DNA of 64,000 nucleotides, from the sequence record MH051335.1. One strand, given 5' to 3'. The stretch is from Escherichia phage vB_EcoM-Ro157lw. Shown piece after piece: positions 30,594 to 45,941 of the stretch. The notes below the pieces were generated by a model. It made no database searches. It saw only the letters and a program-made list of their open reading frames with translations, and was not told the DNA's origin. How positions within the stretch are numbered: position 1 is the first letter of the stretch; the number at the start of each line of letters is the position of its first letter. Both the position numbers and the translations under genes were made by a program.

Positions 30594-31571
30594 TTAAAAA
30601 TACTCCATATCGGTGATATCACGGAAGCACTTATACAAGGCAGAGCGCGGCACGTCAACTATGCCAAAGTTAAAGAATTTATATGTCAGATACTTGTTTC
30701 GATAATTCTCGCGATTCTCCCAAAGCATTTTTCTCTCTGCCATAGGCATTGAACCAGCGGAGACGCGGAAGGGAATCATTTCACCTTTCTCATCAACATA
30801 TTTTGGATTGACAACCACAAATGATCCAAGGTATCCTTTTGCAACTAAGCCTTCAGCCTCTTTCGAACGCTTAGTGCGACCCAGCTCATCAATGAATGCT
30901 TCGTTGTTGTTCTCCATCATCTCAACGAAGTCTATGATCAGTCCTTCTTCATCGGTCCACGGCTTGTCCTTCCACACATCACGTGACTTTGGCGTCGCGC
31001 GGCCATGCTTGTATTTGCCCGTCCAAGACTTGCCATACAAGCCTTCATAGCCAAGCTGGTCTGCTTCGATTTGCATCGCCGCGTACTGTTCCATATTTTC
31101 GATGTTTCGATATTCGAGAGCGCGAAGGAATGGGCGTCGACCATGGTTGATGAGGTGCTGATTGACTTCAGCAACTCTAGCGCGATAGTTTGCATAACGT
31201 TTTTCAAAAGGCAAATCAGGGTCGCTGAAGTCATCAAACACCCACCATGTAAAGTTAGTGATTGCATCAGTGTTCATGCATGCAGTATAGGCCTGTTGCA
31301 TGACGTTCTTGTCGTTCGGATTGCCGTCAATTAGCTCTCCATCAAGGCCGTGAATCAATTCACCCAAAAAGAGGAACTCTTTCTTGATTTGAATGTTGCG
31401 CAACGCCATGCCGGACGTGCCCATTGGCAAATTGTCATATGCCATCGCGCGTATGCCATCGACCTTGAATGACAGTCCGCAAGGCAGCGGCACATCTTCG
31501 CCGCGCTCGATGATTTGTTTACGCTGGCACCCTTTCATTGGTTTTAATGCTTTGATTTCTCCTGCCATCAC
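30594..31571 (-). CDS. ATP-dependent DNA ligase
   Basis: Adenylation motif I KVDGIRA (KxDGxR) with Lys nucleophile; size about 325 aa. Confidence 0.8.
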   Translation of the reverse strand: MMAGEIKALKPMKGCQRKQIIERGEDVPLPCGLSFKVDGIRAMAYDNLPMGTSGMALRNIQIKKEFLFLGELIHGLDGELIDGNPNDKNVMQQAYTACMNTDAITNFTWWVFDDFSDPDLPFEKRYANYRARVAEVNQHLINHGRRPFLRALEYRNIENMEQYAAMQIEADQLGYEGLYGKSWTGKYKHGRATPKSRDVWKDKPWTDEEGLIIDFVEMMENNNEAFIDELGRTKRSKEAEGLVAKGYLGSFVVVNPKYVDEKGEMIPFRVSAGSMPMAERKMLWENRENYRNKYLTYKFFNFGIVDVPRSALYKCFRDITDMEYF

Positions 31572-32161
31572 TCAAACTCCTTATTCATCACTTGTTCCAT
31601 TGCATAGGCGTAAGCCTGATCAGTCGATTTGATAAACGTTCCGTTGTACATCACTCCTTTACGGTCCTTGATGTCTTCATAGGCGGCTTGAGCGCAATCA
31701 GACAGTCGAAGTCCATAATCATGCGCTACGCCGGAAAGATAATCGACTGCGGCCATGATGGTGACATCAATATCCATACTCTGATTTTTAGCAATGGCGT
31801 CACCAAGCCGTCCGAGAGTCTTTGCCAAGCGAAGGATAAACGAGTGAGGGTGGGCACCTTTGTCAGCGCAACCGCCGCCGTTGATGTCTTCGATTTTTGC
31901 ACCATTTTGCGCGGCAAGAATAGTTAACACAACAAGGCAATCGCCGATGTCATCCTTGATTGCGGCTTGTAAATCACAGATGGCCTGCTCTGTATATCCG
32001 ATTTCAGGGTCAAAGAACACAAGGTCATGTAATTGATCAATGTGGTCGGTCAACTCCCCAAACTCGCTAATAAGCTTCGGGTATTGGTCCTTAAGGTCGC
32101 AGCCTTGGATGATGTTACGGTCAGAAGCCCACTGGCGAATGTTTGCATAAATCTGGTTCAT
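31568..32161 (-). CDS. mazG: MazG-like nucleoside triphosphate pyrophosphohydrolase
   Basis: EFGEL and DDIGDCLVVL motifs typical of all-alpha NTP pyrophosphohydrolases. Confidence 0.6.
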   Translation of the reverse strand: MNQIYANIRQWASDRNIIQGCDLKDQYPKLISEFGELTDHIDQLHDLVFFDPEIGYTEQAICDLQAAIKDDIGDCLVVLTILAAQNGAKIEDINGGGCADKGAHPHSFILRLAKTLGRLGDAIAKNQSMDIDVTIMAAVDYLSGVAHDYGLRLSDCAQAAYEDIKDRKGVMYNGTFIKSTDQAYAYAMEQVMNKEFE

Positions 32162-32733: not shown

Positions 32734-33594
32734 TTAAAACTCTTCTGCGTCGGTCGGAGTTTCATTAACAGGGCCAGCGGCACCGCTTGCTTCTTCCTGC
32801 TTGCTGCGGTCAATGTTAACGTTGCCGCCAACTACATCGTTGTGGAATGCTTTGGCGACTTCATACAGACCTTTGTCCTGCACCAGACCTTCCAGCTCAA
32901 ACTTCAGAACTGACCAGGTGTTGCCATCTTTAGACTGAGACGCAGTACCCATGCGAACGATGTTCATGAAGGTCGGCGGAGTTTTCAGGCCCTGCGGAGT
33001 CTGAACTTTCTTCTGCTGCAGAGCGGTCATCAGCATGCGAGACGGCTTGATCATGGAAGAAGTCAGAGACAGCATTGCGCTACCAAATTCACCAGTTTCT
33101 TCGTTCAACAGGATCACAAAGTGGTTACGTGTATCTGCGTAGTAAGGTGATTTCTTCTCGTGCACCTTGCCGTTTTCGTCTGGCACAAACACCTTACCGT
33201 TGATTTCAACAGCGCGGCCTGCTGCGACTTCTGCATCAACGTGCTCTTTGGTGAATTCACCTTTAAAGCCTTTATCGTCGGACTCGCGACCGCCCCAAAG
33301 GATGAAGGTGCGTTTGAATGCGCAAGGGATGATCTGCACACCTTTCTTGCCGTCATACAATTCACCAGTAACGGTGTTGTACAACATACCAGCTTTTGCG
33401 CCAGGAACGTGTTTTGGATCATCTTCGTCGACCATCGGAGACATCTTTTGCAGTACGACGATAAAAGGAATGGCATAAGCGTCGGCATCGGCACCTTCAA
33501 AGCCAGCGCCAAAATCGGTCATGTCGACAAAATCAGCCATAGCGGACATCTGGGTGTTTTTCACTGCAACTTCGGTAGTTTCTTTCTTAGACAT
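32734..33594 (-). CDS. single-stranded DNA-binding protein candidate (T7 gp2.5-like) with acidic C-terminal tail ending in Phe
   Basis: C-terminus ...ETPTDAEEF; location in replication module. Confidence 0.45.
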   Translation of the reverse strand: MSKKETTEVAVKNTQMSAMADFVDMTDFGAGFEGADADAYAIPFIVVLQKMSPMVDEDDPKHVPGAKAGMLYNTVTGELYDGKKGVQIIPCAFKRTFILWGGRESDDKGFKGEFTKEHVDAEVAAGRAVEINGKVFVPDENGKVHEKKSPYYADTRNHFVILLNEETGEFGSAMLSLTSSMIKPSRMLMTALQQKKVQTPQGLKTPPTFMNIVRMGTASQSKDGNTWSVLKFELEGLVQDKGLYEVAKAFHNDVVGGNVNIDRSKQEEASGAAGPVNETPTDAEEF

Positions 33595-36488: not shown

Positions 36489-37131
36489 CTGGATACACCT
36501 GTTTGATCACGTCGACTATAAACATGTCAATGCCTTCAAGCTTTCGACCTTTCATCAGGAAGAATGCACCGTTCCCGACGTTCTCTGCAATGTATTTCCC
36601 GTATTTCTGGAACTTCTCTGGACGAATCCTGAAGCGCATTGGCGAGTCGGTCGAGTCGTCCTTGCACATAAGGTCGATGAACTGAGTTTCAAGCTTGTTT
36701 CCATACTGATCAAACTCTGCGTAGCGGCCATCGGCCTGAAGACCCTTTTTAAGCTTGCCGTGCTTTGTATAAATGCCGCGCTCAAGACGTTTACGGATGC
36801 GTGTTGCTTCGTTCTCGTCAGCCAGCACTTTCTTGGTCAACTTGCCGATTACTATTGCACGCTCGTCATCGCCGACTTCCTTCATCTGACGTATTGAAGC
36901 ACCGGAAGTAACGCCAATCAGATAGGGGTCATTATACGCCCAGCCAAACTTGGTGTGCATCTCTGTAAGGTCGCCGTATTTGACTTCAGCATTGGCCAAT
37001 GCATCCTTTTGTTTTTGCGTTAAGGTTCCGGCTTCACGTGCTTCGATGTACTTCATCGCTTTCACCATTCCGTACCCTTTAGCGTTCATGATGCCGCCAA
37101 TTAGCTTTCCGTTAGCGATTGGCCAATGCAT
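36475..37131 (-). CDS. dnaE: DNA polymerase III alpha-like protein, C-terminal fragment (separated from the N-terminal ORF by a frameshifting 127-bp duplication)
   Basis: First 45 residues duplicate the last 45 residues of the upstream ORF 37112-39499; removing one copy of the duplication fuses both ORFs in frame. Confidence 0.6.
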   Translation of the reverse strand: MHWPIANGKLIGGIMNAKGYGMVKAMKYIEAREAGTLTQKQKDALANAEVKYGDLTEMHTKFGWAYNDPYLIGVTSGASIRQMKEVGDDERAIVIGKLTKKVLADENEATRIRKRLERGIYTKHGKLKKGLQADGRYAEFDQYGNKLETQFIDLMCKDDSTDSPMRFRIRPEKFQKYGKYIAENVGNGAFFLMKGRKLEGIDMFIVDVIKQVYPDGNK

Positions 37132-37246
37132 CCTTTTGTTTTTGCGTTAAGGTTCCGGCTTCACGTGCTTCGATGTACTTCATCGCTTTCACCATTCCGT
37201 ACCCTTTAGCGTTCATGATGCCGCCAATTAGCTTTCCGTTAGCGAT
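36991..37246. repeat. perfect tandem duplication, unit 127 bp (two copies, 36991-37117 and 37118-37244, identity extends 2 nt further)
   Basis: seq[i] equals seq[i+127] across the whole span, read directly; lies inside the polymerase coding region. Confidence 0.9.
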
Positions 37247-39499: not shown

Positions 39500-40041
39500 T
39501 ATTTACTCCAGATGTCATATACGCCAATTTGTTGGCAGACTTTGTGCAGTAATATTACGTCGTCTAATGCACGGTGCTTCTGTTCATATTTTCCGAAATA
39601 TAATTCATACAGCTCTTGAAGCTTAACTCTTCGGCCAAAAATAGGCAAGGTTTGCTCGACTGTACAAATGTTTATTTCTGGAAAATTAACATCACCAAGT
39701 GTAAGACCTTCGCGCTGTAATGCATAATCAAGGATGTTCTTATCGAATGCATGGTTGTGCGCGATAGTGGCATCAGTCTTCTTGAAGATGTCTTTTAGTT
39801 GCGGAACGAAATGAATAAAGGGTGGATTGCACTCAAGGTCTTCATTGGTTAATCCGGTAATCTTTGTGATGATTTCTTCAATCACAATTTCAGGATTAAT
39901 TATGAACTCGAACGTTTCAAGAATCTCTTTGCCGTCCGTCAACAGGCCTGCAAATTCAATAGGGCGCGGCTGCATCCCAAGCGGTGCTTTCGGGTGCACG
40001 GTTAATCCGGTTGTTTCGAAGTCATAAGGGAGAAATAACAC
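39499..40041 (-). CDS. dnaQ: DnaQ-like 3'-5' proofreading exonuclease (DEDDh)
   Basis: Exo I DFETTGL, Exo II HNHAFD, Exo III HRALDD. Confidence 0.75.
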   Translation of the reverse strand: MLFLPYDFETTGLTVHPKAPLGMQPRPIEFAGLLTDGKEILETFEFIINPEIVIEEIITKITGLTNEDLECNPPFIHFVPQLKDIFKKTDATIAHNHAFDKNILDYALQREGLTLGDVNFPEINICTVEQTLPIFGRRVKLQELYELYFGKYEQKHRALDDVILLHKVCQQIGVYDIWSK

Positions 40042-40094
40042 ATTGGCCTCCTACAAAAGGCCGCCCATTAGGACGGCCACAGATTCAAGATTCG

Positions 40095-40646
40095 TTATGC
40101 AGTGTACGGAGTACCATCTTGATTCAACCGCACGATGAACTTAAGGTCGACGCCGATGATTTCACGCGTATCAAAGATCACATAGTTGTAACGACGCTGA
40201 CCAGCAATATTTGGGTTGGTGTGAGAGTCAGTTACAACTTCCTGCGCAACCTGAATGCCTTCTTCTTTAAAGAACTTGCGCCATTCAGCGAGTTCAGCGG
40301 CAGTCACGTGCATACCAAGATGGCTAACCTGATTGTCGTGTGCATCAATATATTCGATGTTTTCGTTAATCCAGTTGCGACCTTTCGTGTAGTCAAGAAT
40401 TTCAAGTTCAAGAGGCTTACCAGCGCCGCCATCGGTGCCGTTGCCAGCTTGATAGTTGAAGCGCAAGTCAGCTTCGTTGGTGCAATCGCCGCGCTGACCT
40501 TTAAAGTCATCAGCTTCAAATACGCGACCAGTAGCAACAACATGATCATGGAACCATTCTGTCAGGCCGATTTTAGCCAGAAAATCCTGTGCGCGCTGAG
40601 CATCTGGAATTGACAGGGCGATTTGTTCAATTTTAAAGTGTGGCAT
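40095..40646 (-). CDS. VOC-family (glyoxalase/bleomycin-resistance/dioxygenase fold) protein
   Basis: Two beta-alpha-beta modules with IEQIALSIPD and SHLGMHV metal-site-like patterns; motif-level only. Confidence 0.4.
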   Translation of the reverse strand: MPHFKIEQIALSIPDAQRAQDFLAKIGLTEWFHDHVVATGRVFEADDFKGQRGDCTNEADLRFNYQAGNGTDGGAGKPLELEILDYTKGRNWINENIEYIDAHDNQVSHLGMHVTAAELAEWRKFFKEEGIQVAQEVVTDSHTNPNIAGQRRYNYVIFDTREIIGVDLKFIVRLNQDGTPYTA

Positions 40647-40666
40647 TTTGTTTCCTTAATTAAATA

Positions 40667-40837
40667 TTATTGATTAATTACTGTGTTGCCTTCGATGGAA
40701 TAAGTCTCAATGGAACCGACGCGCTCGTGGTTAATCTTTGCGTTTTCGATTCTTATTACTTCAAATCCAACGCCTTCTTGATCAATCTTCACTTCTGCCA
40801 CGTCGCCAATCACTTCTACAACAACTTTGATAGTCAT
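40667..40837 (-). CDS. small hypothetical protein (56 aa)
   Basis: Translated by hand: MTIKVVVEVIGDVAEVKIDQEGVGFEVIRIENAKINHERVGSIETYSIEGNTVINQ; fills the gap between VOC and SDR genes. Confidence 0.3.
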   Translation of the reverse strand: MTIKVVVEVIGDVAEVKIDQEGVGFEVIRIENAKINHERVGSIETYSIEGNTVINQ

Positions 40838-40840
40838 GAT

Positions 40841-41524
40841 TTATTTCCCAAATGGAATATCAGTACCAGACATAAAGCGCCATGCGCCCGTAATTAAGAT
40901 ATGGCGAATGAAGTCAGCAATTACTTGCGGCTCAGTCTCCAATCCGTTCATCAATGCCTTTTTCTGGTATTCAGCGGCATACTCAGGAGTCCAGCCGCGA
41001 GTCGCGCAAACAGCATCTTCAATCTGTTTGGACATGCCAGTACCACGTAGCTTGTTAGGACTAATAGAGAATACCGTGATCCCGTATTTAGGCGTAAGCT
41101 CGTGAGCCATCTGCTTGCTAATCATAAGCGCAGCAGCCTTGGATGCATTATAACACAAGCTGGACGTCATAGGAATATGCGCAGCATTAGAAACGATATT
41201 GATCACAAAACCTTTGTTGTCGATAAGACTTTTCAGCGCGGCCTGAGTCGTGTTGACGAAAGAGAAGGCGTTGGTGTGCATAACGCGATTGAACTCTTCG
41301 TAGTTAACATCTTCGAACCAGTTGTTGGAGTTGACGCCAGCGCAGTTGATCAAGCCTTCTACGTCGTATTGAGAGAGAAGCTCTTTCATCTGTTTCGCGT
41401 TACGGATGTCATAGCCGTTCTCCAAATCAATACCGACAACTTCATGACCGTAAGCGCCAAGGGTGTCAAAAATGGATTTACCAAGACCGGAATTGCAGCC
41501 AGTTACAACAATTACTTTTTTCAT
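40841..41524 (-). CDS. short-chain dehydrogenase/reductase (SDR)
   Basis: Cofactor motif VTGCNSGLGK (TGxxxGxG) and catalytic YNASK (YxxxK). Confidence 0.7.
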   Translation of the reverse strand: MKKVIVVTGCNSGLGKSIFDTLGAYGHEVVGIDLENGYDIRNAKQMKELLSQYDVEGLINCAGVNSNNWFEDVNYEEFNRVMHTNAFSFVNTTQAALKSLIDNKGFVINIVSNAAHIPMTSSLCYNASKAAALMISKQMAHELTPKYGITVFSISPNKLRGTGMSKQIEDAVCATRGWTPEYAAEYQKKALMNGLETEPQVIADFIRHILITGAWRFMSGTDIPFGK

Positions 41525-41589
41525 TTATTTATCCTTTTTGGACTTCGTTTCGATGAGATAAATATAACTCATCGAAACGCACAAGTAAA

Positions 41590-42462
41590 CTATTTATTGA
41601 AATTAATATTATGGGTGTTAACAAGACGTTCACACATGGCGCTGTAAACACCATCATCGTGTATAGAGTCTTCGTGCTTCAGGCCGCTGATTGCGAAGCG
41701 TGTAAGCTTGACAATCTTAAGCTCGAACAGATGCCACATGTGGTAGTCTTCCGGCGTTTTCAACGTCACGCCATTAGGGAAAAGCACTTGCATAACCTGA
41801 CCTACCATCACAGCGTTATCGCCATAGACAGCGTTGCGCTCACGGAAGGTTGCTGCCATTGCATCAAGAATATCGGCGGCAGTTGCCGGAGATTGTTCAA
41901 CTTCCACAGCCTTAGTCTCTTCTTGCCCTGTTGCGCTTGGATCAATTGCTAATTGTTGCACCACTTCACCTGCCTTGCAAAGATTAAATGTAAAAGCGAT
42001 TTTATTTTGAGCAACGGAATTATAATACAATGCTTCATCTTGCATCCGCGCGAGTACGTCTTGTCGGTCGTCGAATACATTGATGATTCGATAATCGCCG
42101 TGCCGCAATGCGTGCGATAGCCATGCAGATTTCATAATAGTTGATGGACGTTTGTCGCCATAGTCTCTCATCTTGATTGTAAATTCATCAAAAGGAAAAA
42201 CATTATCCAGACGTTCAAAAGTCACTTGTCTGTATTTTTCTGGCCTTGCAGTCCAATATTCAACCGCCTCACCGCGAAGAGATGCCGACTCTACTGCTGA
42301 TGCAATGTGAGGATAGAACTGATCATAACCAATACCGCTGTGATAGTCATCATAGTCTGACGACGGACCTGCCACCTTTATGCGGTCTAAGCGCCAACGG
42401 TCATCAAACAGCGTTCCGTCAAGGTCGAATACATTTAAGATTTCGCTGTTTTTAATGCTCAT
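41590..42462 (-). CDS. HAD-family phosphatase domain fused to a C-terminal domain of unknown function
   Basis: Motif I FDLDGTL (DxDGT), later NVFDDRQD; C-terminal 140 aa alpha-helical with acidic patches. Confidence 0.5.
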   Translation of the reverse strand: MSIKNSEILNVFDLDGTLFDDRWRLDRIKVAGPSSDYDDYHSGIGYDQFYPHIASAVESASLRGEAVEYWTARPEKYRQVTFERLDNVFPFDEFTIKMRDYGDKRPSTIMKSAWLSHALRHGDYRIINVFDDRQDVLARMQDEALYYNSVAQNKIAFTFNLCKAGEVVQQLAIDPSATGQEETKAVEVEQSPATAADILDAMAATFRERNAVYGDNAVMVGQVMQVLFPNGVTLKTPEDYHMWHLFELKIVKLTRFAISGLKHEDSIHDDGVYSAMCERLVNTHNINFNK

Positions 42463-43289
42463 CCTTTTGATACTCCATCTTTAGCAACTGGATTGTTGGT
42501 GATTGGCATCGCACTCCAAAACTGGATGCGCAACTCTTCTTGCTGTGCCGTGGTATCCATCCAATCACGATACCAAGGGCAATGGGCTTTGCCATGACGA
42601 GGAAACGCGCATTTACCCATACCGATGCATTGCGGCTGTAATAATGGATTTGCCCACGGGTGCACCTTGAGGACTTCCGCAACCATTGCGCGGAATACTT
42701 CTTGATACTCGCCTTGAGTGCGCGTGCACAAGCGGTTTGACGCCATCTGCTGCAGCGTGCGCAAGTTGAACTTTGCCATGATATGCGTTTGCATATTAGA
42801 AGGCAACACGGCACGTGCATCTTGAATCTCTGCGCCAGCCGCGCGAAGCTCTTGATACAAAGCATCGATAGTCGCCATCGCATCATCCCACTTCTCTGCT
42901 AAGTATTGCTTTTGAAGTAAAGATTGGTGCTCTTCATCAGTCCCAAACGCTTCACATTGATCAATCAACTCTGGATTTTGGTGTGAGAATGCCTTCGGAC
43001 GAATCGCATCAAATGCAGACGACTCCTGAGCGCGGCTGGTACGTTCTTGATATGCGCCTGTGCGTGTGCGCACCATCTGATGGGTCATGTTCTTTGAAAC
43101 ATCGGTGATGTCAAAGATATAGTCCACAAAGTCAAAAGGCGACTTGATTGTATCAAGCATGTAGCGCCAGTGCTCTTGCTTCTCTGATTCCGTCATCTCA
43201 GAGACAGGCTTGCCAGTCATGCGCGTGTTCTTTGTTTCCAGCAAAAGGTCAAGTGCATCTTGGGTGTATCGAATTAATTTAACTTTCAT
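42459..43289 (-). CDS. thyX: flavin-dependent thymidylate synthase ThyX-like, with Cys-rich C-terminal extension
   Basis: RTRTGAYQERTSR aligns with ThyX motif RHRxxxYxQxSxR; VLPSNMQTH...PW matches the conserved ThyX C-terminal block; extra CIGMGKCAFPRHGKAHCPW tail. Confidence 0.65.
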   Translation of the reverse strand: MKVKLIRYTQDALDLLLETKNTRMTGKPVSEMTESEKQEHWRYMLDTIKSPFDFVDYIFDITDVSKNMTHQMVRTRTGAYQERTSRAQESSAFDAIRPKAFSHQNPELIDQCEAFGTDEEHQSLLQKQYLAEKWDDAMATIDALYQELRAAGAEIQDARAVLPSNMQTHIMAKFNLRTLQQMASNRLCTRTQGEYQEVFRAMVAEVLKVHPWANPLLQPQCIGMGKCAFPRHGKAHCPWYRDWMDTTAQQEELRIQFWSAMPITNNPVAKDGVSKG

Positions 43290-43302
43290 TTTAATTATCC
43301 TA

Positions 43303-43749
43303 TTAACGGTAGTTCACTAGTTGCTGATCACCAGAGAAGGTGCAATGATAAACAAATTGTGCATTATAAAGCAACTGAAAACTTTTCTTTGGTTCACTAT
43401 TAGCACTCATCGATGTGAATACTTCTGCACCGGAACGGTTTTCACCGATTAAGTTGACAAAGCCGCCAGTTGTGCGAGGTTGAACGAAAGTGAAACGTTG
43501 CATCCACGGAGTCCGGTTGACACCTTTTCCGGTGAATCCTTGAATCTGAATATTCAGACCTTCTTGCTCATTCACACCGATGTAAGTGGTAATCTTCGCA
43601 CCAGTCGTTGCTGCGGTCTTACCGTCCATCGCTTCGCAATCATAAACAGCGATTGAATCGGAAGTACGGATGGCAGCTTCAGTCGCTTCCATATACATGG
43701 TGCCGAGAATAGCAGTTGCGGCAAGCGCGATTCCAGTGATTCGTTTCAT
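43303..43749 (-). CDS. secreted protein (148 aa) with N-terminal signal peptide
   Basis: MKRITGIALAATAILGTMYMEATEA signal-like N-terminus. Confidence 0.45.
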   Translation of the reverse strand: MKRITGIALAATAILGTMYMEATEAAIRTSDSIAVYDCEAMDGKTAATTGAKITTYIGVNEQEGLNIQIQGFTGKGVNRTPWMQRFTFVQPRTTGGFVNLIGENRSGAEVFTSMSANSEPKKSFQLLYNAQFVYHCTFSGDQQLVNYR

Positions 43750-43814
43750 TTTCGTTTCCTCTATGAGTTCTGCTTCAATGATTAAAGTATACGCCCATTG
43801 AAGCAGAAAGCAAA

Positions 43815-44810
43815 TTATTTATTAGCAATATAAGCAAATTTTTGATAGTTATTTGCTTTGATGAGTTTTTCAACTTCAACAAGATCATGAGCGACGTCAT
43901 CAAGCAAAATGTTTCGCCAGGTAGCAAATCGACCGACACTAAACACGTTCAAATCCATAGTCAGCTGCAGGAGTAAGGCGTGTCGCAAGTCTTTCGGAAT
44001 GTCGACAATCTTTCCATATTTCTGGTCGACCTTTTCAACTTCTTCAAGAGCGATGTCACTCCATGAGAGGCCAAATGCCGTCAGCACCTCGTCGACTTCT
44101 GCGCGCAGCTTGATGTCACGGTAACGAGTGATGCCGCCAGCGGCTTCAACTGCAGCTTCACTTACGCTGACCAAAGGAATTGTTTCAATGATAAGCGTGT
44201 CACCAGTAATTGATGCGCGGTAAGTTCTGACGGAGTAGTCAGGGAAGTAAATTGTCTGATACAAATCACACTTACGTTTAATCTTAAAGCGGTAAACACG
44301 AATGTTTGCTTTATCAAATGAGAAATCAAGCTTTTGATCAATCCCAGCCAGCTTCATCATGACTGGCAGCGGCGACGTGTTGATGATTGGCGTCTCGCTA
44401 TAGCCGCAAAGAGTATCAACCGGAGTATTAAAGAATATGCGGTCACCCAGTTTGTCGACAAGCTGATCATAAAAGTCATCAGGCGCAATATAACGCGTTG
44501 CAGTCTTAAGATTCATGATTGAACGGCTGCCAAACTGATTGGTGACCTTCATGGAATACATATTGGCAAGGTTGATTGGGCAATGGTCGTGGTAGTAGTT
44601 GCCGCGAAAATACACAGCCTTGTCAACTGTCACTGCCTTAAAAGGGATTCCGGTAATACGGCTTACTTCTTCGCCACGGAAGCGTAGCAGCGCCTTGTGC
44701 TGTTGCGCTCGCTCCCCTGCTTCGTACACAACAGAGTTCGGGAAGTGACACGCTGTGATAAGTCCTGCCAATCCGCCGCCGATAATCATTACAGGTTGTT
44801 TCATGTTCAT
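43815..44810 (-). CDS. FAD/NAD(P)-binding Rossmann-fold oxidoreductase
   Basis: N-terminal dinucleotide-binding motif VMIIGGGLAGL; family not assignable by eye. Confidence 0.5.
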   Translation of the reverse strand: MNMKQPVMIIGGGLAGLITACHFPNSVVYEAGERAQQHKALLRFRGEEVSRITGIPFKAVTVDKAVYFRGNYYHDHCPINLANMYSMKVTNQFGSRSIMNLKTATRYIAPDDFYDQLVDKLGDRIFFNTPVDTLCGYSETPIINTSPLPVMMKLAGIDQKLDFSFDKANIRVYRFKIKRKCDLYQTIYFPDYSVRTYRASITGDTLIIETIPLVSVSEAAVEAAGGITRYRDIKLRAEVDEVLTAFGLSWSDIALEEVEKVDQKYGKIVDIPKDLRHALLLQLTMDLNVFSVGRFATWRNILLDDVAHDLVEVEKLIKANNYQKFAYIANK

Positions 44811-44942
44811 TTGTCCTTTGTGGGTGATATGAGAAGTATAATAGCTAAATTATTTTACAGCAACAAGTCATTTTATTTAGTACAGATGAAAAAAGACCCA
44901 CAACAAGTGTGGGTCAATTACCGCTGCATAACCGTCCTAAGG

Positions 44943-45782
44943 TTATTCCGCTTGATCACCGTCTTCGGCATCTTCGTTGGATTCAACATCGACAAACTCG
45001 ATGTGGCCCATCTCTTCCAGCTTGCTCAGGTAGGAGCGAACGGAAGCGCCAAACAGTTGATCTTTAACTTTTTCGCCCAGCTCATCGATAGACTGCGCCA
45101 CGCCAACTTCGCCTTCTTTGATCGCCGCCAGAACGCGTCCACGGGTGGAATGCTCTTGCGGCTGGCTCAGGCCATTGCCAGTGTAGATGAAGTGGGTTGC
45201 TTTTGCGCGACGCTGACCGTTTGCCTTTTTAGCAGCCTTACGTTCTGCGATGGCTTTGCGACGTTCTTCAGCTTCTTTCTTACGCTGTTCTTTCTGCTTT
45301 TCTGCAGCTTCTTTAGCCGCAATCTTAGCAGCTTCACGCTCTGCCTTGCGTTTCGCTTTAGCTTCTTCTTTGGCCTTCTCTTTTTCGGCCTTCGCTGCAG
45401 CACGGGCTTGATCACGCTCTGCTTTCTTAGCAGCAGCTTGTTCAGCTTTCAGGCGCTTGGCTTCTTCTTTGGCCTTTGCCTTTTCGATTTCTTTTGCTGC
45501 TTTAGCGGCTTCACGCTCTGCTTTCTTAGCAGCTGCTTTTTCTGCACGCTCTTTGGCTTTCTTCGCTGCTTCTTCAGCACGTTTCTGTGCTTTCTCATCA
45601 GCGGCCTGCTTGCGTTTCAGTGCAGCTTCTTCACGCTTGGCTTGTTTTTCCTGCTCACGCTTCTGGCGTTTTTCTTCGGCTTCTTTCTTTTTAGCCAGGC
45701 GTTTTTCTTCAGCCACGCGACGACGTTCTGCTGCAGCTGCTTGTTTTTCTTCTTTAGATAATACTTTGATTGCTTCGGCCAT
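44943..45782 (-). CDS. Lys/Ala/Glu-rich low-complexity protein with small globular C-terminal domain
   Basis: About 200 residues of KxAExxAK-type repeats, then about 80 non-repetitive C-terminal residues. Confidence 0.5.
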   Translation of the reverse strand: MAEAIKVLSKEEKQAAAAERRRVAEEKRLAKKKEAEEKRQKREQEKQAKREEAALKRKQAADEKAQKRAEEAAKKAKERAEKAAAKKAEREAAKAAKEIEKAKAKEEAKRLKAEQAAAKKAERDQARAAAKAEKEKAKEEAKAKRKAEREAAKIAAKEAAEKQKEQRKKEAEERRKAIAERKAAKKANGQRRAKATHFIYTGNGLSQPQEHSTRGRVLAAIKEGEVGVAQSIDELGEKVKDQLFGASVRSYLSKLEEMGHIEFVDVESNEDAEDGDQAE

Positions 45783-45941
45783 ATTCACAGTCCTTAAATA
45801 AATTAGTTTATTTTATATTCCCCGTTTGGGATAACTTAATTATGCCTTCAGTCGCCGCCAGTAGCAACTAAAAACTCTGGCGGCAATGCCACTTTAATTA
45901 AACTGATTTTCAGTTTTATTTTTCGTAAATTTACGTCAACA

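What the first reader, a model, noticed from the sequence alone, without database searches (positions are those of the whole stretch)
40095..44810. Metabolic cluster next to the replisome: VOC, SDR, HAD-fusion, ThyX-like, secreted protein and FAD oxidoreductase
Six co-oriented genes with enzyme-like motifs sit between the proofreading exonuclease and a Dda-like helicase. ThyX, a HAD phosphatase and a flavin oxidoreductase could form a nucleotide-salvage or modification route (for example flavin recycling for ThyX or dephosphorylation of nucleotides). The SDR and VOC enzymes are unusual in a phage replication module and may instead act on a small molecule. This is the best candidate in the window for an uncharacterised accessory pathway.
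Basis: inference. Interest (0 to 1): 0.65.

Follow-up and report, generated by a model that had tools for sequence, protein, structure and literature searches.

The report
Candidate thymidine-hypermodification gene cassette
This run of enzyme genes in an E. coli Wifcevirus phage is a cassette conserved across PB1-like and other DnaE-type phages, and is the best candidate for making the sugar-decorated thymine recently found in Pseudomonas relatives, whose genes are unknown.

Summary
Seven co-oriented minus-strand ORFs (44810 to 40095) lie between two terminator-like hairpins in a Wifcevirus genome (98% identical to phage FEC19). They encode a UGM-like FAD protein, a signal-peptide protein, ThyX, a HAD phosphatase fused to a DUF6378-like domain, an SDR, a 56-aa ORF and a VOC-like protein.

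The cluster is not a loose set of accessory genes. In 60 of 60 related viral loci the order is FAD, ThyX, HAD/DUF6378, then optionally SDR and VOC, then exonuclease and DnaE. SDR and VOC are present together (40 loci) or absent together (18). In other phages that slot holds a methyltransferase or an unknown protein. The secreted protein and the 56-aa ORF are Wifcevirus-only inserts.

The ThyX proteins form a separate subfamily (R-T/S/N-R instead of RHR, Phe for His53).

A 2025 preprint reports that Pbunavirus F8 and 14-1, which carry the core cassette, have about a quarter of thymidines hypermodified at TG. The masses fit tetritol and pentose derivatives. No genes were assigned.

Wifceviruses resist restriction with no known protection. 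They resist EcoCFT_II (site inferred as CACAG, which contains TG) but not EcoP1_I (AGACC, no TG).

Best reading, untested: this is a flavin-based thymidine-hypermodification pathway.

The parts
44895..44915 (-). Terminator-like hairpin upstream of the cassette. It ends the preceding Lys/Ala/Glu-rich gene.
   Evidence: 8-bp stem with 5 GC pairs followed by TTTTTT. A terminator is annotated at the same place in phage Mansfield.
43815..44810 (-). FAD-binding flavoprotein (331 aa) of the UGM/protoporphyrinogen-oxidase/amine-oxidase fold class (phrog_4828, function unknown). First gene of the cassette.
43303..43749 (-). 148-aa protein with a signal-peptide-like N-terminus. A lineage-specific insert in the variable slot between the FAD and ThyX genes, and probably not part of the pathway.
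   Evidence: No family hit. Among related loci, found only in the Wifcevirus ones. Other phages carry unrelated small ORFs or homing endonucleases in this slot.
42459..43289 (-). ThyX-family flavin-dependent thymidylate synthase homologue (276 aa) of a distinct subfamily. It has a Cys-rich C-terminal extension (C188, C221, C227, C237). Its stop overlaps the next gene's start by 4 nt.
   Evidence: Thy1 E 1e-29. TIGR02170 scores 79.8 bits, below the equivalog cutoff of 87.9. Signature RTRTGAYQERTSRA against canonical RHRIASYNELSGRY, and PFDF against PFEH. The Arg equivalents of T. maritima R78, R80, R90, R147 and R174 are kept.
41929..42462 (-). HAD phosphatase domain (residues 1 to about 178) of the 290-aa fusion protein. 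It has a DxDGT motif, is related to the phosphatase domain of polynucleotide kinase/phosphatase, and has no kinase domain.
   Evidence: HAD_PNKP E 4.7e-8, 33.7 bits, cutoff 27.6. phrog_4889 E 1e-121. D13, D15 and D131-D132-R133 are invariant among four genera.
41590..41892 (-). DUF6378-like four-helix-bundle domain (residues about 191-290). This is the more conserved half of the fusion, and it is a separate gene in many phages.
   Evidence: 31 of 36 homologues hit PF19905 (DUF6378) weakly, best E 7e-5. The window copy itself does not. AF2 pLDDT 92, four helices. Present in 60/60 loci. A stand-alone gene in 41-kb and 62-kb phages. Invariant polar residues R19, Y23, N26, H54, K62, R65, H73, D75, S76, D79, numbered within the 100-residue domain.
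40841..41524 (-). Classical short-chain dehydrogenase/reductase (227 aa), probably NAD(H)-preferring. First gene of the optional tailoring pair.
   Evidence: adh_short E 1e-31. TGxxxGLG, D33, NCAG, S114 and Y125-x3-K129 are conserved in 42 homologues. No NCBIfam model reaches its cutoff.
40667..40837 (-). 56-aa ORF between the SDR and VOC genes. Wifcevirus-specific, function unknown.
   Evidence: Found only in Wifcevirus loci. An ORF is annotated at the same place in Mansfield, Bas98 and Bas99.
40095..40646 (-). VOC (glyoxalase/dioxygenase-fold)-like protein (183 aa). Second gene of the optional tailoring pair and last gene of the cassette.
   Evidence: Glyoxalase_4 E 8e-4, below cutoff, with the same weak hit in the Serratia and Xanthomonas phage orthologues. 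Conserved E80/E82 and H109/H113, but no clear fourth metal ligand. Co-occurs with the SDR in 40 loci and is absent with it in 18.
40059..40078 (-). Terminator-like hairpin closing the cassette, just before the proofreading exonuclease gene.
   Evidence: 8-bp stem with 7 GC pairs followed by a T-run. Annotated as a terminator in Mansfield.

Best explanation
The cassette is the biosynthetic locus, or its core, for a sugar-type hypermodification of thymidine in the phage's DNA. That modification would protect the DNA from restriction.

Shown. The window is a Wifcevirus. Five of the enzymes form a cassette of invariant order shared with Pbunavirus, Myosmarvirus, Carpasinavirus and many uncultured phages. 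The obligate core is the UGM-like flavoprotein, a distinct ThyX subfamily and the HAD/DUF6378 protein. The slot after it holds alternative enzymes: SDR+VOC, a SAM methyltransferase, an unknown protein, or nothing.

Reported by others. Pbunavirus F8 and 14-1 have about a quarter of their thymidines replaced, at TG, by nucleosides of 362 and 390 Da. No genes were assigned. Wifceviruses resist restriction with no known protection.

Inferred mechanism.
- The ThyX variant supplies or activates the one-carbon unit at C5 of the pyrimidine, as dTMP, 5-hydroxymethyl-dUMP or the exocyclic-methylene intermediate of ThyX chemistry.
- The UGM-like flavoprotein handles an anionic sugar substrate such as a sugar phosphate or nucleotide sugar, or the DNA itself. 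It helps join that sugar to the C5-methyl carbon through oxygen.
- The PNKP-type HAD phosphatase removes the phosphate of the sugar-phosphate donor or adduct.
- DUF6378 is an obligatory partner with no assignable activity.
- In Wifcevirus the NAD-dependent SDR and the VOC-fold protein further oxidise, reduce or isomerise the sugar. The Wifcevirus adduct should therefore differ from those of F8 and 14-1.

Which step acts on nucleotides and which on DNA is not resolved.
For: Identity of the phage: 98% to FEC19.

Synteny. In 60 of 60 loci spanning FAD to the exonuclease, ThyX and the DUF6378-like domain are present and the order is identical. In 70 of 70 FAD genes with at least 2.5 kb downstream, ThyX follows. 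SDR and VOC are both present in 40 loci, both absent in 18, and alone in 2. The same cassette occurs in 41-kb and 62-kb phages. The core trio also occurs in a 206-kb Rhizobium phage, next to dUTPase and RNR genes.

Variable tailoring slot. It holds a SAM methyltransferase, a 278-aa unknown protein, extra HAD paralogues or a DenV-like glycosylase.

Flavoprotein. Its fold is closest to UGM, a sugar-nucleotide enzyme that uses flavin N5 covalently. It carries many invariant Arg/Lys.

ThyX subfamily. All 67 unique ThyX sequences next to the flavoprotein lack the RHR histidine and have Phe at the His53 position and Ala/Val at Tyr91. They keep the nucleotide-binding arginines.

Relatives. F8 and 14-1 have hypermodified T at TG and no known modification genes. 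Both carry the core cassette. The HAD-DUF6378 protein is its most divergent enzyme between these two phages, which have different adducts: 80.8% identity against 97.3% for FAD and 93.8% for ThyX.

Mass arithmetic (my own). 258 (5-hmdU) + 122 (tetritol) - 18 = 362. 258 + 150 (pentose) - 18 = 390.

Wifcevirus phenotype. [quoted passage not shown] I infer the EcoCFT_II site to be CACAG, whose complement CTGTG contains TG twice. AGACC/GGTCT contains none. F8 DNA is likewise cut by BsaI, whose site GGTCTC contains GGTCT.

Precedent. Phage thymidylate-synthase homologues with flavin chemistry, together with a UGM, occur in DNA glycosylation clusters.
Against: No experiment links any cassette gene to the modification, and no one has analysed Wifcevirus DNA chemically.

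The cassette has no recognisable glycosyltransferase, DNA base kinase (5-HMUDK), aGPT-Pplase or TET/JBP enzyme. It also has no obvious sequence-specific DNA-binding protein to explain a TG motif.

The ThyX keeps all nucleotide-binding arginines, so it may simply make dTMP.

The trio sits among ordinary nucleotide-metabolism genes in the Rhizobium phage, which fits a nucleotide-pool role.

Wifceviruses resist EcoRI (19 GAATTC sites, no TG), whereas F8 is cut by EcoRI. A TG-only modification therefore cannot explain their phenotype, and another anti-restriction factor may be at work.

F8 makes a sugar-alcohol adduct without SDR or VOC.

The loci compared are not phylogenetically independent. Synteny could partly reflect common descent of a replication module.

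The DUF6378 fold search gave nothing specific.
Confidence: 0.5

Rival explanations
1. An ordinary nucleotide-pool module. ThyX makes dTMP to feed very fast replication. The HAD phosphatase and DUF6378 adjust deoxynucleotide pools, for example as a 5'-nucleotidase. The flavoprotein supports ThyX by reducing or repairing its flavin or supplying a cofactor. SDR and VOC are unrelated auxiliary metabolic genes. Any DNA modification is made by other genes.
For: Thy1 domain with the nucleotide-binding arginines kept. Always beside the DnaE/epsilon replicase. In the Rhizobium phage the trio lies among dUTPase, RNR and NUDIX genes. A dCMP deaminase is nearby in 41-kb relatives. FAD and ThyX are strictly adjacent in 70/70 loci, which would suit a physical partner. 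Public annotations already treat these genes this way.
Against: The flavoprotein fold (UGM/PPOX/amine oxidase) is not that of known flavin reductases, and no second dinucleotide-binding motif is evident. The ThyX subfamily changes three otherwise conserved positions. A nucleotide-pool module would not be expected to carry a slot with alternative tailoring enzymes such as SDR+VOC or a methyltransferase. This reading also leaves the modification of cassette-bearing F8 and 14-1, and the restriction resistance of Wifcevirus, without any candidate genes.
Confidence: 0.28
2. A nucleic-acid end-repair system. The PNKP-like phosphatase, together with the phage ligase, heals tRNA or DNA nicked by host defence nucleases, as T4 Pnkp and Rnl do. 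The other genes are unrelated.
For: HAD_PNKP and the PHROG label 'polynucleotide kinase/phosphorylase'. An ATP-dependent ligase is encoded at 30594-31571.
Against: There is no kinase domain in any of the orthologues aligned. The ligase is 10 kb away and outside the transcription unit. The phosphatase is always linked to DUF6378 and ThyX, not to a ligase. In five of 60 loci the HAD domain detected with the window's HAD query is missing while DUF6378 stays. In two of these five a different HAD_PNKP paralogue takes its place.
Confidence: 0.05
3. Host envelope remodelling. A UGM-like mutase with SDR, VOC and phosphatase alters a host nucleotide sugar such as UDP-Galf of the O16 antigen, to change the cell surface during infection and exclude superinfection.
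For: Similarity to the UGM fold. The Wifcevirus receptor is the O16 antigen, whose biosynthesis cluster includes glf and a galactofuranosyltransferase. A secreted protein is encoded inside the cluster.
Against: The same cassette is conserved in phages of Pseudomonas, Xanthomonas, Serratia, Pantoea and Rhizobium, which have different surface glycans. It is always tied to ThyX and the replicase. There is no Pfam GLF hit, and profile alignment to E. coli Glf extends only over the FAD motif. No glycosyltransferase or membrane protein is present. The secreted protein is Wifcevirus-only.
Confidence: 0.04

Closest known systems
Thymidine hypermodification pathways of phages M6, ViI, PaMx11, SP10 and PhiW-14 (Lee et al. 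2018; 2021, PMC8989533)
   Same: Gene clusters beside replication and nucleotide genes, with a thymidylate-synthase-family enzyme that installs the C5 one-carbon unit. Partial replacement of T. Groups attached through the C5-methyl carbon, O-linked in 5-NeOmdU. A combinatorial set of tailoring enzymes, including a flavin oxidoreductase in PaMx11. Protection from restriction.
   Different: Those pathways use a ThyA-type dUMP hydroxymethylase, a P-loop 5-hmdU DNA kinase and an aGPT-Pplase amino-acid:DNA transferase, and they attach amino acids or polyamines. None of these was found in the cassette or annotated in the genome. Here the synthase is ThyX-type, the flavoprotein is UGM-like rather than MnmC/DAO-like, and the adduct in relatives is a sugar or sugar alcohol.
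Hypermodified thymidine of Pbunavirus F8 and 14-1 (Yee et al. 2025 preprint, PMC12191111)
   Same: These phages carry orthologues of the cassette core. The FAD protein is 38-40% identical, ThyX 48-49%, and HAD-DUF6378 27% (HAD part) and 49% (DUF6378 part). Their positions next to the exonuclease and DnaE are the same. Their DNA is sensitive at AGACC-containing sites and protected at TG-containing sites, in parallel with the Wifcevirus EcoP1_I and EcoCFT_II results.
   Different: Pbunaviruses lack SDR and VOC. F8 is cut by EcoRI whereas Wifceviruses resist it. The preprint assigns no biosynthetic genes, and nobody has analysed Wifcevirus DNA.
Glycosylated 5-hydroxycytosine and 5-hydroxymethylcytosine systems (RB69, DLP3, RL38J1, T-even phages; PMC13326640)
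   Same: A thymidylate-synthase homologue makes the modified pyrimidine nucleotide, with unexpected flavin chemistry. Sugars are then attached by ether or glycosidic links. Phage RL38J1 encodes a true UGM for galactofuranose.
   Different: Those systems act on cytosine, use ThyA-fold enzymes, replace the base completely and need dedicated glycosyltransferases and a dNMP kinase. None of these is visible here.
Canonical ThyX (flavin-dependent thymidylate synthase; T. maritima, M. tuberculosis, PBCV-1)
   Same: Thy1 fold. The arginines that bind dUMP and polarise the uracil are conserved.
   Different: The signature is R-[TSN]-R...[ST]-x-R-[AV] instead of RHRxxSxxxxSxRY. Phe replaces His53. The protein scores below the NCBIfam equivalog cutoff. 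A four-Cys C-terminal extension is present in the PB1-like/Wifcevirus branch. The gene is always paired with the UGM-like flavoprotein.
UDP-galactopyranose mutase (Glf/UGM)

Membership tests
ThyX / flavin-dependent thymidylate synthase | Thy1 (PF02511) domain above the gathering score | tested here: met
   103.9 bits against a cutoff of 24.8, E 1.2e-29.
ThyX / flavin-dependent thymidylate synthase | ThyX signature motif RHRxxSxxxxSxRY | tested here: not met
   The window has RTRTGAYQERTSRA. All 67 unique cassette-linked homologues have R-[TSN]-R and Ala/Val in place of the final Tyr.
ThyX / flavin-dependent thymidylate synthase | Score above the NCBIfam equivalog cutoff (TIGR02170) | tested here: not met
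   79.8 bits against a cutoff of 87.9.
ThyX / flavin-dependent thymidylate synthase | Nucleotide-binding arginines (T. maritima R78, R80, R90, R147, R174) | tested here: met
   All five align to conserved Arg residues.
ThyX / flavin-dependent thymidylate synthase | Converts dUMP to dTMP with CH2-THF and NADPH | not testable with these tools
   Needs an enzyme assay or complementation of a thyA mutant.
UDP-galactopyranose mutase | GLF domain (PF03275) and sequence-level homology to Glf | tested here: not met
   No Pfam hit. phmmer against PDB finds nothing. hhalign against E. coli Glf aligns 20 N-terminal residues only, probability 5.6%.
UDP-galactopyranose mutase | UGM-type three-dimensional fold with an FAD-binding Rossmann domain | tested here: met
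UDP-galactopyranose mutase | Interconverts UDP-Galp and UDP-Galf using reduced flavin | not testable with these tools
   Needs a biochemical assay.
T4 Pnkp-type polynucleotide kinase/phosphatase | HAD phosphatase domain with a DxDGT motif | tested here: met
   HAD_PNKP 33.7 bits against a cutoff of 27.6. FDLDGT at residues 12-17, with D13 and D15 invariant.
T4 Pnkp-type polynucleotide kinase/phosphatase | P-loop 5'-kinase domain | tested here: not met
   No kinase domain in the window protein or its Serratia, Xanthomonas or Pseudomonas phage orthologues. The C-terminal half is a DUF6378-like helical bundle.
DUF6378 (PF19905) | Match to the Pfam model | tested here: inconclusive
   The window domain gives no hit. 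31 of 36 homologues hit weakly, best E 7.4e-5. In a distant locus (L058) a DUF3310 protein occupies the same position after ThyX.
Classical short-chain dehydrogenase/reductase | TGxxxGxG cofactor motif, NNAG, and catalytic Ser-Tyr-Lys | tested here: met
   adh_short E 1e-31. All motifs are conserved at 90% or more in 42 homologues. No specific subfamily model reaches its cutoff.
Vicinal oxygen chelate (glyoxalase/dioxygenase) superfamily | Pfam domain above cutoff and a complete metal-binding set (His/Glu from four strands) | tested here: inconclusive
   Glyoxalase_4 scores 20.1 bits against a cutoff of 27, with similar weak hits in orthologues. Conserved E80/E82 and H109/H113, but no clear first or fourth ligand. 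No PDB sequence hit.
Known thymidine hypermodification clusters (5-HMUDK + aGPT-Pplase type) | ThyA-type dUMP hydroxymethylase, P-loop 5-hmdU DNA kinase and aGPT-Pplase transferase | tested here: not met
   None appears among the seven cassette proteins by Pfam, PHROGs or NCBIfam, and none is annotated in the Bas99 genome. The Pbunavirus preprint also says known genes are absent. I did not scan every ORF of the window.
Known thymidine hypermodification clusters (5-HMUDK + aGPT-Pplase type) | Non-canonical thymidine derivative present in virion DNA | not testable with these tools
   Reported for relatives F8 and 14-1. Unknown for Wifcevirus.

The most novel reading that the evidence does not exclude
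A route to DNA hypermodification in which a ThyX-family enzyme and a UGM-like flavoprotein together attach a sugar or sugar alcohol to the C5-methyl carbon of thymine, with no glycosyltransferase, base kinase or aGPT-Pplase. Both enzyme types work through flavin-N5 covalent chemistry. One possible mechanism is capture of the exocyclic-methylene intermediate of ThyX chemistry by a hydroxyl of erythrose-4-phosphate or a pentose phosphate. The PNKP-type HAD domain would then remove the phosphate, and SDR/VOC or a methyltransferase would diversify the adduct. This would be new enzymology for both flavoenzyme families. It would also define a widespread and so far unrecognised class of modified phage genomes, marked by the FAD-ThyX-DUF6378 trio.
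Probability: 0.2. Interest if true: 0.92.

Novelty: new variant of a known kind. Interest (0 to 1): 0.78.

Why it matters
Pbunaviruses are among the most used therapeutic Pseudomonas phages. Their DNA was only recently reported to carry a sugar-type thymidine modification, and its genes are unknown. Wifceviruses resist restriction with no explanation.

If this cassette is responsible, it names the genes and gives a simple genomic marker, the FAD-ThyX-DUF6378 trio. With that marker, hypermodified DNA could be predicted in roughly 2000 related phages from Pseudomonas, Escherichia, Serratia, Xanthomonas, Pantoea, Rhizobium and metagenomes. It would also predict which phages are targets of modification-dependent nucleases such as the END family.

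The cassette would further point to new chemistry for two flavoenzyme families and to a source of enzymes for making modified DNA. The hypothesis can be tested directly with existing phages (Bas98-101, F8, 14-1).

Tried and rejected
Searches that gave nothing useful:
- Sequence searches of the flavoprotein and the VOC protein against PDB.
- Profile comparison of the flavoprotein family with E. coli Glf, which aligned only the FAD motif.
- A profile of that domain against PDB sequences.
- Pfam on F8 gp069-071. gp070 is only 57% identical between F8 and 14-1, so I considered it as a possible specificity factor, but the scan gave nothing usable.
- Literature searches for ThyX with Pbunavirus, for DUF6378, for a ThyX-type hydroxymethylase, and for gene assignments of the Pbunavirus modification. 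None found any prior functional claim.

Ideas considered and set aside:
- SDR as an alternative dihydrofolate or pteridine reductase. The Asp at the end of strand 2 suggests NAD rather than NADPH, and ThyX does not produce dihydrofolate.
- SDR plus VOC as a dihydrodiol dehydrogenase with an extradiol dioxygenase. There is no supporting context.
- A TG-only modification as a full explanation of the Wifcevirus restriction profile. This is rejected because EcoRI sites (no TG) are also protected.

Full report
What is there. The window is a nearly complete genome of an Escherichia myovirus of the genus Wifcevirus. Bases 40000-45000 are 98% identical to phage FEC19 and 93-98% identical to 27 other records. 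The finding's six genes are all present on the minus strand at the stated coordinates, together with a 56-aa ORF at 40667-40837. Read in the direction of transcription, the unit starts after a terminator-like hairpin at 44915-44895 and ends at a second one at 40078-40059, just before the proofreading exonuclease gene. Both terminators are also annotated in phage Mansfield. The ThyX stop codon overlaps the start of the next gene by four bases.

The individual proteins.
- 42459-43289 is a ThyX-family protein (Thy1 E 1e-29). It falls just under the NCBIfam equivalog cutoff (79.8 against 87.9 bits).
- 41590-42462 is a fusion. The N-terminal half is a PNKP-type HAD phosphatase (DxDGT, above the Pfam cutoff) with no kinase domain. 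The C-terminal 100 residues form a confident four-helix bundle (pLDDT 92). The homologues of this domain weakly match DUF6378 (31 of 36, best E 7e-5).
- 40841-41524 is a classical SDR with all catalytic motifs and an Asp that suggests NAD(H).
- 40095-40646 is only weakly VOC-like, below the Pfam cutoff, with an incomplete set of metal ligands.
- 43303-43749 has a signal-peptide-like N-terminus and no homologues outside Wifcevirus.

The cluster is a conserved cassette. I fetched 80 viral loci that encode a relative of the flavoprotein and added annotated loci from Pseudomonas, Serratia, Xanthomonas and Rhizobium phages. I then mapped the window's proteins onto them.
- In all 60 loci that span the flavoprotein gene to the exonuclease gene, ThyX and the DUF6378-like domain are present and the gene order is identical.
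- In all 70 loci with at least 2.5 kb downstream of the flavoprotein gene, ThyX follows, at a median gap of 380 bases.
- SDR and VOC are both present in 40 loci, both absent in 18 (including all Pbunavirus loci), and alone in 2.
- The HAD and DUF6378 parts are separate, overlapping genes in many phages. The full set also occurs on 41-kb and 62-kb contigs with a different virion module.
- The slot after HAD-DUF6378 can instead hold a SAM methyltransferase, a 278-aa protein with no family, or nothing. Other inserts are extra HAD paralogues, a DenV-like glycosylase and homing endonucleases.
- In the most distant locus (L058), the flavoprotein-ThyX pair is followed by a DUF3310 protein.
- The secreted protein and the 56-aa ORF occur only in Wifcevirus loci.
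These loci are related to one another, so the counts are not independent events. They do span phages of several host genera and at least three genome sizes.

A separate ThyX subfamily. All 67 unique ThyX sequences from these loci share four departures from the canonical enzyme: R-[T/S/N]-R instead of RHR, Phe at the position of T. maritima His53, Thr/Ser/Ala for Ser88, and Ala/Val for Tyr91. They keep the arginines that bind and polarise dUMP. The PB1-like/Wifcevirus branch adds a four-cysteine C-terminal extension, C188, C221, C227 and C237 in the window.

Evidence from the literature.
[quoted passage not shown] The exception is EcoP1_I.
- The raw data show EOP near 1 on EcoRV, EcoCFT_I and EcoCFT_II, 0.27-0.92 on EcoRI (38 counted sites), and no plaques at all on EcoP1_I.
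- A 2025 preprint shows that Pbunavirus F8 and 14-1 have new nucleosides of 362 and 390 Da replacing about a quarter of thymidines. [quoted passage not shown]
- In that work, F8 DNA was resistant only to enzymes whose sites contain TG. No biosynthetic genes were identified, and the authors stress that known modification genes are absent.
- I found no later paper in the library that assigns the genes.
- F8 and 14-1 both carry the core cassette, gp065, gp059 and gp057 in F8. Between these two phages, whose adducts differ, HAD-DUF6378 is the most divergent cassette enzyme. It is 80.8% identical, against 97.3% for the flavoprotein, 93.8% for ThyX and 96.4% for DnaE.

A check I could run. My counts of sites in Bas98 and Bas99 reproduced the published numbers for EcoRI, EcoRV and AGACC. 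The only 5-mer with the published EcoCFT_II counts (92 and 93) was CACAG. CACAG/CTGTG contains TG twice, and Wifceviruses resist it. AGACC/GGTCT contains no TG, and they do not resist it. This matches F8, whose DNA is cut by BsaI (GGTCTC). The parallel is incomplete, because EcoRI sites lack TG yet are protected in Wifcevirus, while F8 is cut by EcoRI. Wifcevirus protection is therefore either broader, as might be expected if SDR and VOC change the adduct or if the target context differs, or it involves another factor.

Interpretation. The masses fit 5-hydroxymethyl-dU ether-linked to a tetritol (258+122-18 = 362) or to a pentose (258+150-18 = 390). This is my own arithmetic. Three features of the cassette suit such chemistry and look like a biosynthetic cluster with interchangeable decorating enzymes:
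- a thymidylate-synthase-family enzyme that builds the C5 one-carbon unit;
- a flavoprotein of the sugar-nucleotide mutase type, with a phosphatase of a type that acts on phosphorylated DNA ends;
- a variable tailoring slot.
I therefore rate the hypermodification reading as most likely, at about 0.5.

It remains an inference. No glycosyltransferase, base kinase or TG-reading DNA enzyme is visible. The ThyX may simply make dTMP. In a Rhizobium jumbo phage the trio sits among ordinary nucleotide-metabolism genes.

The main rival, at about 0.28, is a plain nucleotide-pool module whose flavoprotein assists ThyX. End repair and envelope remodelling are unlikely, for the reasons given under the rival explanations.

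Novelty. The gene calls themselves are already in GenBank. Phage Mansfield annotates a UGM, phosphatase, ThyX, dehydrogenase and glyoxalase here. What appears to be new is the following:
- recognition of a conserved FAD-ThyX-DUF6378 core with a variable tailoring slot;
- the distinct ThyX subfamily;
- the link to the Pbunavirus thymidine modification and to the unexplained restriction resistance of Wifcevirus.
If confirmed, this would be a new enzymatic variant of a known kind of system, a phage DNA hypermodification cluster.

Noticed in passing
window 36991-37244: A perfect 127-bp tandem duplication (36991-37117 and 37118-37244, 100% identical) lies inside the DNA polymerase III alpha gene. 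It shifts the frame and splits the gene into ORFs of 795 and 218 aa. All 28 related phage records have a single copy and an intact gene of 2898 bp. The length of 127 equals a common assembler k-mer, so this is probably an assembly or circularisation artefact rather than biology.
   Followed up: yes
window 42459-43289 (ThyX residues C188, C221, C227, C237): The ThyX of Wifcevirus and PB1-like phages has four conserved cysteines: one in the RLC-x-RTQ motif and a C-x5-C...C tail with a variable insert. Branches whose ThyX reads SRTGGRTQ lack them. This may be a zinc or iron-sulfur site, which is not a feature of canonical ThyX.
   Followed up: partly
window 44943-45788: A 281-aa protein lies just upstream of the cassette. 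It has a long Lys/Ala/Glu-rich low-complexity N-terminal part (annotated 'TolA protein' in some records, strong AT skew) and a conserved C-terminal domain shared with Pbunavirus gp066. It has no Pfam hit and its function is unknown.
   Followed up: partly
window 31568-32161: A MazG-like pyrophosphatase (197 aa) whose C-terminal part matches PHROGs labelled 'DNA binding protein', next to the ATP-dependent DNA ligase. It could help control the nucleotide pool if a modified nucleotide is made.
   Followed up: no
L038-L043 and L080 (e.g. L039:11977-12339); L049, L074, L084 (e.g. L084:6797-7327): In some uncultured relatives the cassette contains a 120-aa T4 DenV-like pyrimidine-dimer glycosylase (Pyr_excise, E 1.6e-12) between the ThyX and HAD genes. 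In others a SAM methyltransferase sits in the slot that SDR and VOC occupy elsewhere.
   Followed up: partly
L095:13894-15090 and L096:13997-15301 (Pbunavirus F8 gp070 and 14-1 gp71): This gene, just across the divergent promoter region from the Dda-like helicase, is only 57% identical between F8 and 14-1. Its neighbours are 91-99% identical. It carries a weak CxxCxGxG-type zinc-finger match. It might relate to the different adducts of the two phages, or to something else entirely.
   Followed up: partly
Bas98/Bas99 genomes (L091-L094); not in the window: The recognition site of the type III system EcoCFT_II, given only in a figure of the BASEL paper, can be inferred as CACAG. It is the only 5-mer whose counts match the published 92 and 93 sites. 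Separately, the block of Wifceviruses by EcoP1_I (no plaques, at least 9 logs) is far stronger than usual restriction and is unexplained.
   Followed up: partly
window 32734-33594: A 286-aa protein matches Pfam Pam3_Gp34 (E 4e-86). The same family flanks the cassette in the 41-kb phages (L086, L087). This indicates that a larger replication-associated block is shared across phage groups.
   Followed up: no
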